DNA of 64,000 nt from NCBI GenBank assembly GCA_963826785.1, contig CAWGYD010000001.1:32001-96000 (forward strand), given 5' to 3'. Positions within the stretch are counted from its first letter, which is position 1, and every line of letters begins with the position of its first letter. The position numbers were made by a program. This document shows positions 33,001 through 42,000 of this stretch, one piece after another. Source of the DNA: an uncultured delta proteobacterium (GTDB lineage: Bacteria; Desulfobacterota; Desulfobacteria; Desulfobacterales; Desulfosalsimonadaceae).

Positions 33001-36000
33001 TGTCCCGGCCTTCCCTGAGGTCCAGCCCATTGATGTAGCGGTGGATGCTTTCGGCCGCGGCTTTTCCAGAAGACACGGCATCCACCACCGACTTGGGCCC
33101 ATAGAAGGCGTCGCCGCCGGCAAACACCCATTCAAGCGAGGTCTGCAGGGTCTGCGGGTCCGCATCCAGCCCGCCCACCCGGGTCAAGGGGACGTTCTGG
33201 CCTTCAAAGTCGGAAGTGTGGGTCCCCTGTCCGATGGCGATGATCACGGTGTCCCCGAAAAAAGCCTGGCAGGCCGATTCATCGAATTGAGGGGAAAACC
33301 GCCCTTCTTCGTTGAACACGGCGGTGCAGGTCTTGAACTCGATGCCGGAAACCTTTTTGTTGTCGTTGATGAAAAAGGACTTGGGCCCGAACGAGTTGAC
33401 GATGTCGATGTCGCCTTCCAGCGCCTCTTCTATTTCATGTTCCCATGCCGGCATCTCCTCGCGCTTTTCCAGGCAGAGCATGGTCACATTTTCCGCCCCC
33501 TTGCGCTTGGCGGTCAGGGCCACGTCGATGGCCACGTTCCCGCCGCCGATCACCAGCACGTCTTTGCCGATGGAAACGTCTTTGCCCATTGCCGCGTCCC
33601 GGAGGAAATCCACCCCCTGGAGCACGCCCTCGGCATCTTCGTTCTCCACGCCGAGCTTCCGGCCGCTGTGCAGACCGATGGCCATGAAGACGGCGGCATA
33701 GCCGTCCGCCTTGAGGCTGTCGAAGGTGACATCCTGGCCGAAGGTGACCCCCGTCTGGATCTCTACCCCCATCTCCTCGATGGCCCTGATTTCATTTTTC
33801 AGGATGTCCCGGGGGAGCCGGTATTCAGGGATGCCCACGGCCATCATACCGCCGGCCACGGGCAGTTTTTCAAAAATGGTGACCCCGTATCCCCGCCTGG
33901 CCAGGCTATAGGCGGCCGCCAGGCCCGCAGGACCGGACCCGATCACGGCCACCTTTTCGGCGCGTTTTTCCTCGGGCACGGCGGGCATGAATGTTTCGCC
34001 CTGTTCGTTTTCCCAGTCCGCCAGGAAGCGGTGAAGTTCCCGGATAGCCAGCGGCTGATCGTAATCGCCCCGGGTGCAGACCCCTTCGCAGGGATGATGG
34101 CAGACCCGGCCGCAGACGCCGGGGAAGGGGTGCTCTTCCCGGAACAGTTCCACGGCCTCCTTGTATTTTCCCTGGTTGATCAGGGCGATATAGCCCTGGA
34201 TGCTGACGTGTGCGGGGCAGGTGGCCTTGCAGGGGGCGGTCCCGCGCTTGCTGATGGCATAGGCCCCCGGAATGGCCTGGGCGTATTTCTTGTAGGCGGC
34301 TTTCCGGCTGCCCATCCCCTTGTCCTGTTCGCTGGGAACCTCGATGGGGCACACCTTGGCGCACTCGCCGCAGGAGGTGCATTTGGAAAGGTCGATATAA
34401 CGGGGTTCCTGGCGGATATGGGCCTTGAAGTTGCCCGGTTCGCCGTCAAGCGTGAGCAGTTCGGTGTTGGTTAAAAGCTCGATATTCAGATGCCGGCCGA
34501 CCTCGACCAGTTTGGGCGAGATGACTCACATGGCGCAGTCGTTGGTGGGAAAGGTCTTGTCCAGCTGGGACATGATGCCGCCGATGGCGGATGTTTTTTC
34601 CACCAGGTATACATAATATCCGGAATTGGCCAGGTCGATGGCCGACTGCATCCCGGAGATGCCTGCGCCGACCACCATGACGGACCCCACCGGCTGGCTG
34701 CGTTCAGGGGTTTTCCCGGATTCTTTTGCCTGTTCCATTCTTATCTCCTTGTGATGTTGCTGCCGTACATATCCATTCAGATCATGCAAGAGGTCACGCA
34801 TAAAGCGAACGCCGTTCATGATGCGGTGCGATCATTTCCTGGTCCGCAGAATAAAATACGCGTGTAAACGAATTCACCGCACGCCCGGATCGAAACATAT
34901 TTTTTATTTTAAAGTGCCAGATATGTCAATGATAATAATATAATATTCATCGGGTTTGTTTTGAGAAATGTCTCAAAAAACGAAAATAAGAAGAGATCAA
35001 TCGTCTTCAATCGATTTTCATAAATATATGCATGTTGTTTTTGAACCGGGACATAATAGAGGCCTGATCTATTTCTTGACAAGAATATATCACTTTGTGG
35101 CAGAATGGTCCGAGTTCTTCATGCATTTGGAAAGTGCTTATATCCTGAGTTGAATATGAAATATAACATCCGTTTCTACTTTGGCCAGATTCTATGGGCA
35201 TTTTAGTGTTTGACAGGGAATCGGGATTTTTTTTATAGTGCCAAAAAAGTCCCATTTTCTTTATCATGAGCACATACATCAAGCAGGAGAATGTCCCATG
35301 AGCCAGAAAAGATTGAACAGATTCAAGCCATGTCTGATGGCCGGTGTCTTCACGGCCCTCTTTTTAATGTGCATTTCAGCGCCGCAGTCCGTCTATGGCT
35401 GAGGATCCAGCAATCTGACCGTGACTGTCAGTCCAGCAAACACCGGCCACGTCAAAGTCAATGGAACGGTTTATACGGGTTCATGCGGCTATAGCTCTGG
35501 TACCAAGCTAACCCTGGAGGGGGTTGCTTCCGAAAATTACAAGTTCGATCGGTGGGGCGGCGCCTTGAGCGGCAGCACCAATCCGACAACGCTTACTATG
35601 GATACCAGTAAAAGCGTTACTGCCTACTTCCGATTGAAGACCGAATCGGTCTCTCTGTCCGGTGCGAAAAACCTGATGGATACCCAAAAAGACCTGGTGG
35701 TTATCGATGTGAGGCCGGCCGCCGAATACAGCACCGCTCACATGTTGTGCGCCAGAAATTACATCTGGAATGCGGGGGCTAAAAATTTCACCACACCCCT
35801 GAATACGCTTAATTCCTTAAAATCTCAAAATATCCTGGTTTATGACCGCGATGGCACCAACAGCGACGATGCCGCCGACTATCTGGCCAACCAGGGTTTC
35901 AACTCGGTTTATTACATGACCAACGGTCTGGATGACTGGATGGCCGCGGGATACGAGACCTTTGCCACGGCCGCGGACAGCAGCATCTGCACCAGCCTTG

Positions 36001-39000: not shown

Positions 39001-42000
39001 ACCGTTGTTCTTTCGGGTTCCACATCCAGCCGCCCCACCTTTACCGCACCTTATGTGCAGGCAGCCGGGGCAACGCTTACTTTTCTGCTGACGGTGAGCG
39101 ACAATCTGGGCCATACAGACTCGGACAGTGTCAATGTGCGTGTCGCTTCGCAGAATCTGAACCTGGCGGCAGCGGCCGGACCCGATCAGTCCGTCGAATC
39201 CGGTGCAACCGTTGTCCTGGATGGATCAAACTCCTCGCCCCAGAGCGACATCGTCTCATATCAATGGGTGATGATCGACAACAACTTAAACCTTTCCGGC
39301 ATCGATCTGACCAGCAAGTGGGGAGAGGGAATGGTGTCTTTTCTGGCACCCGAGCAGAGCGGTTGGATTGAATTTGAACTGACTGTCAGCGGTGTGGACG
39401 GCAGCAGCGACAGCGACACGGTTGTGGTCACGATCACTCAAACCAGCGGCGGCAGCGGGCTCGCAGCGAATGCCGGATCGGACCAGGCCGCCCTCATCGG
39501 GACCATGGTCATGCTCGATGGATCCGGTTCCCAGGGGGACAACCTGCAATATCAGTGGCGTTAGATCCCCGAAGCCACGGTCACCTTGTCCGGGGGAAAT
39601 GAATGGACGGGGATTTCCCTGCAGAAAACCCCGACTTTTACCGCCCCTGAAACCGGGCAGCCGCAGCAAACGCTGACCTTTGAGCTGAAGGTGAAAGATA
39701 CGGTCAGCGGACAGACGAGCATCGATACCGTGGATATCCTGATCAACAGCCAGGCTTACGTGGACAGCAATGCATCGCCGACCGCAGATGCGGGTCCGGA
39801 TCTTCAAGTCGCCCCCGGTGCGGTGGTAAAGCTTGATGCAAGCGGTTCCACAGATCCCGAAAACAGGATCATCTCCTATCTCTGGACGGTCCAATCCGGT
39901 TCGGCTGCTATCCGGCTGTCGGATGACAAGGCAATCGACCCGGTCTTTACGGCGCCGGCTGCATCCGGTTCGGCTGAATTCAAGTTGACCGTCATCGATG
40001 ATGCCGGAAAAAGCGATACGGACATGGTGACGGTCGACTGGGCCAATCAACCGCCCTCCGCGAACGCGGGAACGGATCAGACAGTTACCGAAGGAAGCAT
40101 GGTGACCATGGACGGTTCGGGTTCCTCGGATATCGATGACGGCATCGTCTCCTATGAATGGGTCCAGACAGGGGGCCTTTCCGTCGCGCTCACGGGTAAA
40201 GACACCGCCCAACCCACTTTCAGTGCGCCGATGATCACCACCGGGCAAACGGCGGCATTGTCCTTCCGCCTGACGGTTAAAGACCGCCTCGGACAGTCGG
40301 ATACGGACCAGGTGATTGTCACCGTCACCCGGGACGGTATGCCGCCAATCGCAGATGCGGGTCCGGACCGCACGGTCAACGAAGGCGATGTCATTGAGCT
40401 TGACGGGACGGAATCCATGGATCCGGACGGAAATATCGTCAGCTATCAATGGAAACAGGTTCACGGCCCGGTGGCCGGGATTTCAGACGAAACATCCGCA
40501 AAAGCCTCCTTTATCGCCAGGCGGTCAGGGTGGACCAGCTACCGCTGACCTTTGATTTGACGGTAGTGGACAACGAGGGACTGAGTTCTTCAGACCGGGT
40601 GATCATCACCATTGTCAATGTGGGGGAATTGCCCGTGGCGAATGCCGGGGAGGACCAGGCGGTTTACGAGCGTAAAACCGTCACCCTGGACGCATCCCGG
40701 TCAAAAGACAGGGACGGCCTCATCGAGCGGTATAAATGGAGCCAGATCACCGGTCCCACCGTCGTCTTTTCGGATTCCGAGGCCATGCAGCCCACCTTTG
40801 ACGCTCCCATCATCGGGGAAAATCCGGTGGATCTCGAATTCCAGCTCATGGTCGAGGACAACGACGGACTCAAAGGATTCGACCGGGTGAAGATCACCGT
40901 GAACCCGACCACCCAGGCCCCTGTGGCCGATGCAGGCCCGGATCAGACCGTGAAAGAAGGGGAAACAGTGGTCCTCGACGGGTCGGGATCTTCGGATCCG
41001 GATGACGGGATTATCAGTTATAAATGGACCCAGGCGGCCGGTTCGGTCACGGTTGAACTTTCCGACGAAACCGCCCCGCAGCCGACATTTGAGGCCCCGA
41101 AAATTAGCGGCGAAGACGTTGCGCTGAGCTTCAAGCTGGTGGCAGAGGATTTCAGCGGTCAGCAGGGGGTGGATACGTGTGGTCACCGTCACCGATAAAT
41201 CCGATGGCGGAGGCGGCGGCGGATGCTTCATCTCGACTTTGATGGAGTAAATGAAGTTTAGCCGCTTGGTCTTTTATTCATGATGATCTGAGCGTCCCTG
41301 CCGGGAAGAACTTCCGGCAGGGACGCTTTTTTTATCGGCTATAAAATCTGGCGAATCCCGGGGTCATGGATTCCGCTATGGCGCCGTCGTCCTGTTCATA
41401 CAGGATGAGCGCCTCGATCCCCAGTTTCTGAGCGATGGCAAGGCCACCGGCGCGGCCGGCAACCGTGATGGCGGTGGCTGCGCCGTCCAGAAGGGCATTG
41501 GAAATCGCCGGGTCAATGGTCAGGGTGGTGACCCCCAGGATTTTTTCCGGGACCGGTTTGCCGGTTTCGGGGCTGAAGATGTGGTAGAATGCGTATCCCT
41601 GAATCATGATGGGCTGCTCATAATTGCCGCTGGTGGAAACCCTGAGCACGCCGGTGTGGCTGACGATGCCATAGACGGCATCGGGGTCCATGGGGTGCTG
41701 AATCCCGATGCGCCAGGGTTTGCCCTGGTTGTCCCCGAAAGCGGCCACTTCGCCGCCCAGCTGGATGATTCCGGCCGCGGCCCCGTTTTTTACCACCACT
41801 TGCCGCACCCGGTCCACCGCATATCCCTTGGCGATCCCGCCGAAATCAAACATGATGTTCGCATTGTCCAGATCGACATGGCCGTTCGACAGATGAACGT
41901 GCGAAAAACCCGTATCCTGCAGGGTGCTTCGGATTTGGCGCTCGGAAGGCACCTGCTGTTTTTTTTCGGCCTCCTGCCAGAGGCGCTTGATGGGCATCAT

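What a model noticed while it worked through the whole genome (the two positions that open the first line are those of the whole stretch)
35298..39564. Exported InlB-B-repeat proteins with selenocysteine in place of the lipobox cysteine
Two paralogous exported proteins (g00058+g00059, C1:67298-68206; and g00062 extended upstream to C1:70203) carry an in-frame TGA (C1:67400-67402; C1:70314-70316) directly after their signal peptides, ahead of a Flg_new_2 (divergent InlB B-repeat) domain. The TGA is read as selenocysteine; in Cys-containing homologues of other Desulfobacterales the same position is the lipobox cysteine of a lipoprotein signal. This is a selenoprotein family not in current lists, and the first case I could find where Sec sits at the +1 site of a signal peptide.
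Evidence so far: Translation through TGA restores a signal peptide to both proteins. In 400 Desulfobacterales genomes many homologues covering the N-terminus have exactly one in-frame TGA; 18 of 18 extracted Sec-type N-termini (16 from relatives + 2 here) show h-region, polar c-region, [GA]-U-[GAVC], then the B-repeat, whereas 3 homologues without TGA have L/I-x-G-C lipoboxes at that place and 2 have plain AxA sites. All 18 have the hairpin (G)CUGAC-CGUGNNN-GUCAG(C) (or UUUGAC...GUCAAA) 12-21 nt after UGA; the same peptide LTVxV[ST] away from a Sec codon uses that hairpin in 1 of 12 independent cases. A genome-wide scan for signal peptide + [GAS]-U finds only these two and the beta-barrel gene. 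No NCBIfam se [...]
(Added by a program. Inside this text positions count along the whole contig: contig position 32,001 is position 1 of the stretch shown here. "Call 12" and the like, gene names such as g00115 and contig names such as C1 are that model's own, and its searches are not shown. The text may have been shortened before it was handed on; [...] marks where a part breaks off. The agent that wrote the report below was given it as the finding of a first reader that could run no searches.)

Follow-up and report, generated by a model that had tools for sequence, protein, structure and literature searches.

The report
Selenocysteine-tipped bacterial surface proteins
Two genes that look cut short by a stop codon most likely encode long exported surface proteins that begin with the rare amino acid selenocysteine, paired with a nearby cysteine; this is a selenoprotein family missing from current catalogues, but not a selenium version of a lipoprotein anchor.

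Summary
Both in-frame TGAs (35400, 38314) are real and almost certainly encode selenocysteine (Sec). 31 such genes in 17 genomes keep the TGA and an invariant SECIS hairpin. A DNA-only metagenome search gave 41 in-frame matches, all behind a signal peptide; none of 40 out-of-frame matches led into the domain. selB and selD occur in 13 of 13 well-assembled carriers; here they fall in assembly gaps.

The lipobox reading fails. Only 1 of 64 distinct N-termini fits a strict lipobox, and 59 of 64 have a Pro or charged c-region of signal peptidase I type. The Cys lipoproteins share only a promiscuous domain, while two true Cys paralogues have non-lipobox signals.

New here: 31 of 31 genomic Sec domains carry exactly one extra Cys (controls 3 of 76, 14 of 348), mostly in two loops that co-evolve with the N-terminal strand. 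This points to a Se-S bond at the tip of an adhesin-like rod. Its function is inferred: redox or soft-metal site about 45%, structural clamp about 25%.

Both genes are longer than reported (35298-37763, 38197-41250) and broken here, probably by sequencing errors. The scan apparently met this family before on other DNA (e1-2991894).

The parts
35210..35239 (+). Sigma-70-like promoter consensus upstream of gene 1 (11 of 12 matches)
   Evidence: a consensus match only
35298..37763 (+). Gene 1, whole: signal peptide, Sec, B-repeat, rhodanese-like domain, three PKD domains, three Fn3 domains; about 820 codons, four frameshifts in this assembly (near 36099, 36224, 36540, 36834)
   Evidence: (intact 808-aa orthologue P0001 aligns over residues 7-807, about 51-53% identity)
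35298..35399 (+). Gene 1 signal peptide, signal peptidase I type (h-region, then polar c-region ending V-Y-G); AGGAG at 35285-35289
   Evidence: the cleavage site is inferred, no predictor was available
35400..35402 (+). TGA read as Sec, predicted +1 of the mature chain
35415..35431 (+). SECIS hairpin of gene 1, written in the codons of the first beta-strand (L-T-V-x-V-S)
35409..35633 (+). Flg_new_2 / divergent InlB B-repeat domain; predicted beta-sandwich resembling CnaB pilin stalk domains
35484..35486 (+). Single partner Cys of gene 1 (mature residue 29), proposed Se-S partner
35664..35945 (+). Rhodanese-like domain with Asp at the catalytic Cys position; two other Cys (mature residues 117 and 197) conserved in orthologues, probably a disulfide
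   Evidence: the disulfide is inferred
38197..41250 (+). Gene 2, whole: signal peptide, Sec, B-repeat, about nine PKD domains, Gly-rich C-F-I tail; start at TTG 38197 or ATG 38203; premature TAG at 39562-39564, frameshifts near 40515 and 41178
   Evidence: the PKD count is read by eye
38197..38313 (+). Gene 2 signal peptide, signal peptidase I type (Pro-rich c-region ending A-G-A-G); AGGAG at 38185-38189
38314..38316 (+). TGA read as Sec, predicted +1 or +2 of the mature chain
38328..38346 (+). SECIS hairpin of gene 2
38443..38445 (+). Single partner Cys of gene 2 (mature residue 44; maps next to position 31 of gene 1)
41206..41247 (+). C-terminal Gly-run + C-F-I + short tail; candidate sorting or anchoring signal, no NCBIfam model hit on homologues that have it
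41290..41328 (+). Terminator-like hairpin after gene 2

Best explanation
Both genes belong to an undescribed family of exported, adhesin-like selenoproteins of anaerobic sediment bacteria. (1) SelB reads a SECIS hairpin written in the codons of the first beta-strand and inserts Sec at the UGA 12-21 nt upstream (strongly supported by comparison, about 0.93). (2) The chain is exported and cut by signal peptidase I, leaving Sec as residue +1 or +2 of the mature protein, not lipidated (inferred from sequence, about 0.88). (3) Sec forms an intramolecular selenylsulfide with the one extra Cys of the first domain, which sits at the same pole of the fold (inferred from co-variation, about 0.8). (4) This Se/S pair caps the far end of a rod of PKD, Fn3 or SdrD-B domains and most likely works as an exposed, reversible redox or soft-metal-binding site: the selenol attacks sulfane sulfur, disulfides or thiophilic metals at the cell surface and the Cys resolves it (inferred only, about 0.45). 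The breaks in this assembly are probably long-read errors (about 0.7), otherwise recent decay of these two copies.
For: Sec: TGA kept in 31 genes of 17 genomes at 24-63% identity to gene 1. Hairpin in 31 of 31, against 0 of 11 non-Sec L-T-V-x-V strands; two members change C-G to U-A on both sides at two pairs. Blind DNA pattern: 41 of 41 in-frame matches follow a signal peptide, 37 of 41 score 34 bits or more on the domain (3 cut by contig ends, 1 divergent), 0 of 40 out-of-frame matches exceed 8 bits. selB in 15 of 16 and selD in 15 of 16 carrier genomes, 13 of 13 at 90% completeness or more. Two tandem paralogues have TGT at the site and have lost the hairpin. The hairpin meets the loop, stem, G and spacing rules of PMC13188914 section 5. 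Signal peptidase I: strict lipobox in 1 of 64; Pro or charge in the c-region in 59 of 64 against 2 of 25 lipoprotein-like controls; hydropathy at -8..-4 of -0.05 against 2.7. Se-S: exactly one Cys in 31 of 31 genomic and 35 of 38 evaluable metagenomic domains, against 3 of 76 and 14 of 348 control domains. 49 of 62 mapped partner Cys lie at positions 29-34 or 68-70. In 2,588 control domains the first residues couple to 31-33, 67 and 70, and natural Cys pairs join residues 3-4 to 27-33. Reactive rather than structural: five members have a local U-C, C-U or U-x-x-C that cannot tie strands together; about 20 of 59 members carry a rhodanese domain, 8 with the catalytic Cys; a second signal peptide + U-G-C family, a beta-barrel, was found in 4 of 201 genomes, all four carriers of this family.
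Against: No protein or RNA data. No atomic distances: the structure tool returns no coordinates. On a contact graph positions 31-33 are close to the N-terminus, 69 only moderately, and the 51-58 class (7 of 62) not at all. One Cys paralogue has a lone Cys with no partner in the domain (G174), and L162 has two domain Cys. The partner's position wanders and no catalytic residue is conserved, which fits a clamp as well as a reactive site. Gene 1's rhodanese lacks the catalytic Cys. No metal-handling genes were evident beside the family's genes in the five neighbourhoods read by eye. Both window proteins pass the lax, recalled PROSITE-type lipoprotein pattern (18 of 64 do). Gene 1's hairpin folds at -6.4 to -7.4 kcal/mol, just short of the -7.5 rule. 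The breaks are about 40 times denser than background (6 frameshifts in about 1,830 aa against 3 in 38,339 aligned aa), so these copies may be dead. Carrier genomes are kin, so the counts overstate independence.
Confidence: 0.6

Rival explanations
1. Purely structural clamp: steps 1-3 hold, but the Se-S bond only ties the free N-terminus to the first domain. Selenium is used because a Se-S bond resists reduction by sulfide better than a disulfide (recalled chemistry).
For: Non-Sec B-repeats carry Cys pairs between the same sites. The partner moves among loops and nothing catalytic is conserved. The fold resembles CnaB pilin domains (best Z 6.4, rmsd 2.4, 68 aligned), which are known to clamp first and last strands covalently (recalled).
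Against: Five local U-C, C-U or U-x-x-C members and the C-x-C paralogue cannot clamp. The same proteins seem to use ordinary Cys pairs elsewhere. 216 of 348 control domains have no Cys at all.
Confidence: 0.25
2. Selenium-dependent expression gate: the early UGA makes synthesis of a large surface protein depend on selenium supply, and the partner Cys merely caps the selenol.
For: The UGA lies as early as an exported protein allows; without Sec only a signal peptide is made. Downstream domains vary widely. Cys paralogues lie in tandem as possible selenium-independent backups.
Against: A gate would work inside the signal peptide, yet Sec always falls in the predicted mature chain with a partner Cys.
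Confidence: 0.1
3. Seleno-lipoprotein: Lgt transfers diacylglycerol to Sec and signal peptidase II cleaves before it.
For: The residue before U is G or A in 62 of 64 and the one after is G in 59 of 64 (the latter partly fixed by the search pattern); 18 of 64, both window genes included, pass a lax recalled lipoprotein pattern.
Against: Strict lipobox in 1 of 64; polar c-region in 59 of 64. True Cys paralogues have A-x-A-type sites. The lipoproteins are not homologous beyond the shared domain. The one-extra-Cys rule would be unexplained. L159 has Sec 8 residues into the mature chain. Many members have their own candidate C-terminal anchor.
Confidence: 0.05
4. UGA is read as Cys by the selC* tRNA-Cys(UCA) / SelB* / CysRS* system described for some Desulfobacterales, giving an ordinary disulfide.
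For: PMC5389517 (passages) reports that system in Desulfobacterales; a partner Cys fits Cys equally well.
Against: The only UCA tRNA found here has G73 and G1:C72, not the U73 and A1:U72 of that system. One selB per carrier genome at E<1e-80 (a divergent SelB* could be missed). In that paper selC* genomes also have the full Sec apparatus, so it would be a fallback at most.
Confidence: 0.05
5. The TGAs are nonsense mutations or artefacts in decaying genes.
For: Both genes carry other breaks in this assembly.
Against: The same TGA and hairpin stand in intact 800-1000-aa relatives and in 64 distinct sequences.
Confidence: 0.02

Closest known systems
Bacterial selenoprotein genes with a coding-region SECIS (E. 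coli fdhF type; consensus model in PMC13188914 section 5)
   Same: In-frame UGA; 7-nt apical loop with G in second place, 17 nt downstream; 5-6 bp stem; SelB, SelD and tRNA-Sec in carrier genomes; Sec/Cys paralogue pairs.
   Different: Sec sits on a non-enzymatic, adhesin-type domain at the predicted mature N-terminus; the hairpin is nearly invariant and doubles as the first beta-strand; the partner Cys has no fixed sequence spacing.
Exported selenoproteins SaoB, SaoX, SaoC (Haft and Gwadz, bioRxiv 10.1101/2022.07.06.499078)
   Same: Sec in exported proteins next to Cys, proposed to bind metal.
   Different: In the passages read, SaoX and SaoC are lipoproteins with Sec far from the signal peptide (mid-chain or C-terminal); they belong to an ABC-transporter system; no NCBIfam hit with these proteins.
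Rhodanese-domain selenoproteins (forms 1-5 in Table 1 of PMC13188914; NF041203, NF045694 TsoB)
   Same: About a third of members, gene 1 among them, contain a rhodanese domain.
   Different: Sec is outside the rhodanese domain; gene 1's domain has Asp at the catalytic site; scores are far below cut-off (25.1 against 115; 24.3 against 805).
Bacterial lipoproteins (Lgt / signal peptidase II), including B-repeat lipoproteins L045-L047
   Same: N-terminal signal followed by a chalcogen residue; G or A before it.
   Different: No lipobox; polar c-region; partner Cys; the lipoproteins have the h-region running up to Cys and a flexible linker.
Flg_new_2 (PF18998) repeat surface proteins; CnaB-type pilin and adhesin stalk domains
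   Same: Domain above the Pfam cut-off; predicted beta-sandwich with parallel first and last strands; PKD, Fn3 and SdrD-B rods.
   Different: Ordinary repeats have 0, 2 or 4 Cys and no Sec; the structural match is middling (Z up to 6.4) and shows no function.

Membership tests
Bacterial selenoprotein gene | In-frame UGA conserved in homologues | tested here: met
   31 genes in 17 genomes; 64 distinct N-termini with metagenomes
Bacterial selenoprotein gene | SECIS: 3-9 nt loop, 4-16 bp stem, G in the first two loop positions, 16-37 nt from UGA | tested here: met
   7-nt loop starting CG, 5-6 bp stem, 17 nt spacing; 31 of 31 against 0 of 11; compensatory changes
Bacterial selenoprotein gene | SECIS free energy at or below -7.5 kcal/mol | tested here: inconclusive
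   gene 2 -18.1; gene 1 -6.4 to -7.4 depending on the stretch folded
Bacterial selenoprotein gene | Sec machinery in the genome | tested here: inconclusive
   Own genome: tRNA-Sec and frameshifted selA present; selB and selD missing together with their conserved neighbours, so in gaps. Other carriers: 13 of 13 well-assembled genomes have both
Bacterial selenoprotein gene | Cys-containing homologues at the same position | tested here: met
   two tandem paralogues with TGT and no intact hairpin
Bacterial selenoprotein gene | Selenium shown in the protein | not testable with these tools
   needs labelling or mass spectrometry
Lipoprotein (signal peptidase II substrate) | Lipobox [LVI][ASTVIG][GAS] before the modified residue (pattern recalled) | tested here: not met
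   1 of 64; neither window gene
Lipoprotein (signal peptidase II substrate) | Hydrophobic region running up to the lipobox, no polar c-region | tested here: not met
   Pro or charge in 59 of 64 against 2 of 25 controls; hydropathy -0.05 against 2.7 (controls were picked by lipobox and a hydrophobic stretch, so partly circular)
Lipoprotein (signal peptidase II substrate) | Lax PROSITE-type pattern (recalled) | tested here: inconclusive
   18 of 64, both window genes included
Lipoprotein (signal peptidase II substrate) | Diacylglyceryl modification | not testable with these tools
   experiment needed
Signal peptidase I substrate | n-, h- and polar c-region with small residues at -3 and -1 | tested here: met
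   [AVS]-x-A directly or one residue before U in 38 of 64; a looser -3/-1 rule with U at +1 in 41 of 64; no dedicated predictor run
Catalogued selenoprotein family (NCBIfam 20.0; Table 1 of PMC13188914) | Score above a family model's cut-off, or listed domain | tested here: not met
   no model above cut-off for 12 proteins scanned; no B-repeat or PKD entry among 119 families
Flg_new_2 (PF18998) domain | Pfam gathering score 23.6 | tested here: met
   34.2 and 36.1 bits
Active rhodanese sulfurtransferase (gene 1) | Catalytic Cys in the active-site loop | tested here: not met
   Asp in gene 1 and its orthologues; Cys in 8 other members
selC* Cys recoding system | tRNA(UCA) with U73 and A1:U72, second selB, cysS* | tested here: inconclusive
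   own UCA tRNA has G73 and G1:C72; single selB in carriers at E<1e-80; cysS* not searched; own assembly 88% complete

The most novel reading that the evidence does not exclude
The signal peptide + Sec + SECIS-encoding first strand is a portable 'selenium tip'. It arms unrelated surface rods with a reversible covalent warhead that grips thiols, polysulfide or metal-sulfide surfaces, or partner cells, by Se-S exchange, and in some members passes sulfur to or from an attached rhodanese. That would be a selenium counterpart of thioester adhesins in sulfidic sediments, and part of a wider, overlooked class of exported proteins with Sec at the mature N-terminus.
Probability: 0.2. Interest if true: 0.85.

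Novelty: new variant of a known kind. Interest (0 to 1): 0.62.

Why it matters
Known bacterial selenoproteins are mostly redox enzymes with Sec in a fixed catalytic motif. Here Sec sits on a non-enzymatic stalk domain at the outer tip of surface proteins, and its partner Cys moves among loops while staying mostly at one pole of the fold. Gene callers drop the signal peptide: all 23 family homologues retrieved from the database (P0002-P0025 without P0013 and P0021 makes 22, plus none full length) start after the TGA, so the family is invisible as both exported and selenium-bearing. Some genomes keep five copies. The 80-residue domain is small enough to test directly what a surface Se-S bond does in sulfide-rich settings. 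The more striking claim, a selenium-anchored lipoprotein, is unlikely.

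Tried and rejected
Lipobox reading: rejected. Loss of the Sec system in this strain: rejected; purM-, tsaD-, mltG- and hemW-like neighbours of selB and uvrA- and pdxA-like neighbours of selD (named by eye from the translations) are also missing from the assembly. 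The 96-nt 'tRNA-Trp' at C1:229358 is a poor fold inside a coding region, not a Sec variant; a relaxed ARAGORN run gave noise. Sequencing runs: none was listed, so the breaks and expression could not be checked. A profile search of 1.84 billion representatives was swamped by tandem-repeat proteins and gave no further Cys homologues; its hits served as controls instead. A genome-contig scan with one member found only its two close relatives among 5 loci. A tree of the domains did not finish, so no claim on the order of events is made. The fold search of the two-domain model matched only rhodaneses; no InlB B-repeat structure appeared among the 50 rows, which excludes nothing. Rows dropped: one hit in L016 (a frameshifted repeat without signal peptide) before the count of 31; 8 duplicates before the count of 64; 3 contig-end fragments before the count of 38; 12 of 59 members were not given to the Pfam scan (47 were). 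Look-up of earlier findings by sequence and by place returned nothing. Haft and Tolstoy 2025 could not be read.

Full report
OBSERVATION. Read with TGA as U, gene 1 starts at ATG 35298 and gene 2 at TTG 38197 or ATG 38203. Each has a signal peptide, a TGA (35400-35402, 38314-38316) and then a Flg_new_2 domain above Pfam's cut-off. A 5-6 bp hairpin with a 7-nt loop starts 12 nt after each TGA. Its motif occurs 3 times in the genome, twice here, and only these two have an in-frame TGA upstream. Both genes are longer than reported. Gene 1 runs to 37763 and aligns with an intact 808-aa orthologue from G214 over residues 7-807: B-repeat, rhodanese-like domain, three PKD and three Fn3 domains. Gene 2 runs to 41250: B-repeat, about nine PKD domains and a Gly-rich C-F-I tail.

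BREAKS IN THIS ASSEMBLY. Gene 1 has four frameshifts; gene 2 has one TAG and two frameshifts. Most lie at short homopolymer runs, read by eye, which suggests long-read error. They are about 40 times denser than background (3 frameshifts in 38,339 aligned residues of 106 genes; none in a further 4,170 residues), so decay of these copies stays possible. No reads were available to decide.

SELENOCYSTEINE. Searches of 401 genomes of the order and 401 of the phylum gave 31 genes in 17 genomes with signal peptide, TGA and B-repeat (one artefact row dropped). Identity to gene 1 is 24-63%. The hairpin core is present in 31 of 31; two members change two pairs on both sides, one change altering Ser to Lys. 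The same peptide away from a TGA uses these codons in 0 of 11 cases. As a blind test I searched metagenomes with a DNA pattern only. Of 81 matches, 41 were in frame, and all 41 had a signal peptide upstream; 37 scored 34 bits or more on the domain, 3 ended at contig edges and 1 was divergent. None of the 40 out-of-frame matches exceeded 8 bits. The hairpin fits the loop, stem, G and spacing rules of the consensus model (PMC13188914 section 5); gene 1 falls just short of the energy rule. selB and selD were each found in 15 of 16 carrier genomes, and in 13 of 13 well-assembled ones. In this 88%-complete assembly tRNA-Sec and a frameshifted selA are present and selB and selD are not, but their conserved neighbours are missing too, so these are gaps. 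The tRNA has G73 and G1:C72, unlike the Cys-inserting selC* tRNA of some Desulfobacterales (PMC5389517, passages). Two true Cys paralogues exist, each in tandem behind a Sec copy, with TGT at the site and no intact hairpin. The 22 family proteins among the 32 database hits all start after the TGA.

NOT A LIPOBOX. Among 64 distinct N-termini, 1 fits a strict lipobox and 18 a lax pattern, both window genes among the 18 (patterns recalled). 59 of 64 have Pro or a charged residue in the last 7-8 positions, against 2 of 25 lipoprotein-like controls from this genome; hydropathy at -8..-4 is -0.05 against 2.7 (the controls are partly circular). An [AVS]-x-A site lies directly or one residue before U in 38 of 64. 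The three Cys lipoproteins (L045-L047) score 46-59 bits against the Sec set, like generic repeats (median 57), while the true Cys paralogues score 86 and 92 and end in A-x-A-type sites. L159 has a C-U pair 7-8 residues behind its likely cleavage site. Sec is therefore most likely residue +1 or +2 of a signal peptidase I product.

THE PARTNER CYSTEINE. All 31 genomic Sec domains hold exactly one Cys between U and the end of the domain; 3 of 76 other repeats from the same loci do, one of them a Cys paralogue, and 14 of 348 repeats from unrelated proteins. In the blind set 35 of 38 evaluable members have one; the others have the C-U pair, three Cys, or two Cys. The position varies: of 62 mapped Cys, 27 lie at 29-34 and 22 at 68-70 (gene 1 numbering), 7 at 51-58, 4 within three residues of U, and 2 elsewhere. 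AlphaFold gives a confident beta-sandwich (pLDDT 91-94) but no coordinates, so I estimated contacts by co-evolution in 2,588 control repeats. The first residues couple to 31-33, 67 and 70; first and last strands run parallel; natural Cys pairs join residues 3-4 to 27-33. On a contact graph 31-33 are near the N-terminus, 69 moderately so, and 55 not. A Se-S bond at the N-terminal pole is thus well supported for the main classes, but remains an inference. Against it, one Cys paralogue lacks a partner. The fold resembles CnaB pilin stalks only moderately (Z up to 6.4).

FUNCTION. What follows the tip varies: PKD, Fn3, SdrD-B, DUF5719-like and further B-repeats (47 of 59 members scanned). About 20 of 59 carry a rhodanese domain, 8 with the catalytic Cys; gene 1 has Asp. 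C-termini include the Gly-rich C-F-I tail and, in three metagenomic members, a membrane helix with basic residues. I favour a reactive Se/S site (redox exchange or soft-metal binding) at the far tip of a surface rod, about 0.45. The reasons: five members and one Cys paralogue keep the pair in local forms that cannot clamp; Sec is kept across wide divergence; and a second signal peptide + U-G-C family, a beta-barrel, turned up in 4 of 201 genomes, all carriers. A reduction-resistant clamp (0.25) and a selenium-dependent expression gate (0.1) are the main rivals. None of these is shown.

WHAT IS KNOWN. No NCBIfam model passed its cut-off for 12 proteins scanned. Table 1 of the 2026 review lists 119 families, none with a B-repeat or PKD domain (PMC13188914: abstract, term search, section 5, section 7 parts 1-2 of 3). 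BSepDB (PMC13326102) was checked by term search of text and its one held supplement, with no relevant hit; deep-Sep (PMC12013277) by passages; Haft and Gwadz (bioRxiv 10.1101/2022.07.06.499078) by passages, which describe exported Sec proteins with Sec far from the signal peptide. Full-text searches for selenoprotein with lipoprotein signal, lipobox, signal peptide, selenylsulfide or B-repeat (listings only) found no description. Haft and Tolstoy 2025 was not available, and its text or supplements, like bioRxiv supplements, may bear on novelty. The scan's own notes hold an apparent earlier sighting of this family (e1-2991894), possibly another (e1-2382947), and several other families with Sec at the mature N-terminus; these are unchecked leads, not support.

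VERDICT. A real and apparently undescribed selenoprotein family with an unusual design: a new variant of a known kind. The seleno-lipobox is unlikely (0.05). Interest 0.62.

Noticed in passing
G000 C10:213300-214230, minus strand (L127, L235): Beta-barrel-like gene with signal peptide + A-G-U-G-C; TGA and motif kept in all 3 homologues found in 200 other genomes, all carriers of the B-repeat family. The G174 copy lies near genes that look like an arsenite exporter and a cation efflux protein (named by eye).
   Followed up: partly
window 41206-41247; also G000 C1:349668, C4:180321, C8:95604, C10:13364: A short Gly-run + C-F-I/V + 2-12 residue C-terminus ends at least five proteins of this genome and about 17 family members; no NCBIfam model hit. 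Candidate C-terminal sorting or anchoring signal.
   Followed up: partly
window 29999-34740 and about 29693-30170, minus strand: An HdrA-like gene and the following MvhD-like gene each read through one in-frame TGA in a Cys-x-x-Sec context, as known selenoproteins do (names recalled).
   Followed up: no
window 41332-43827, minus strand: ApbE-like flavin transferase and MltF-like genes flank the Sec genes both here and in G134, where they lie between two Sec genes (names by eye). May be plain synteny.
   Followed up: no
window 35664-35990: Rhodanese-like domain with Asp for the catalytic Cys and a conserved H-x-x-C-A motif plus a second Cys; seen in about 12 members; looks like a disulfide-stabilised pseudo-enzyme.
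   Followed up: partly
L143, L159, L169; L140, L150, L152, L209: Metagenomic members with a C-terminal membrane helix and basic tail, or with a C-terminal rhodanese that keeps its catalytic Cys; probably from another lineage, taxonomy not determined.
   Followed up: no
G067 C1:2627000-2635300; G174 C3:337700-342500: Tandem arrays of two or three Sec-tipped genes; each of these genomes holds five Sec copies and one Cys copy.
   Followed up: partly
G000 C3:45209-46668: selA is split by one frameshift near codon 190-215.
   Followed up: no
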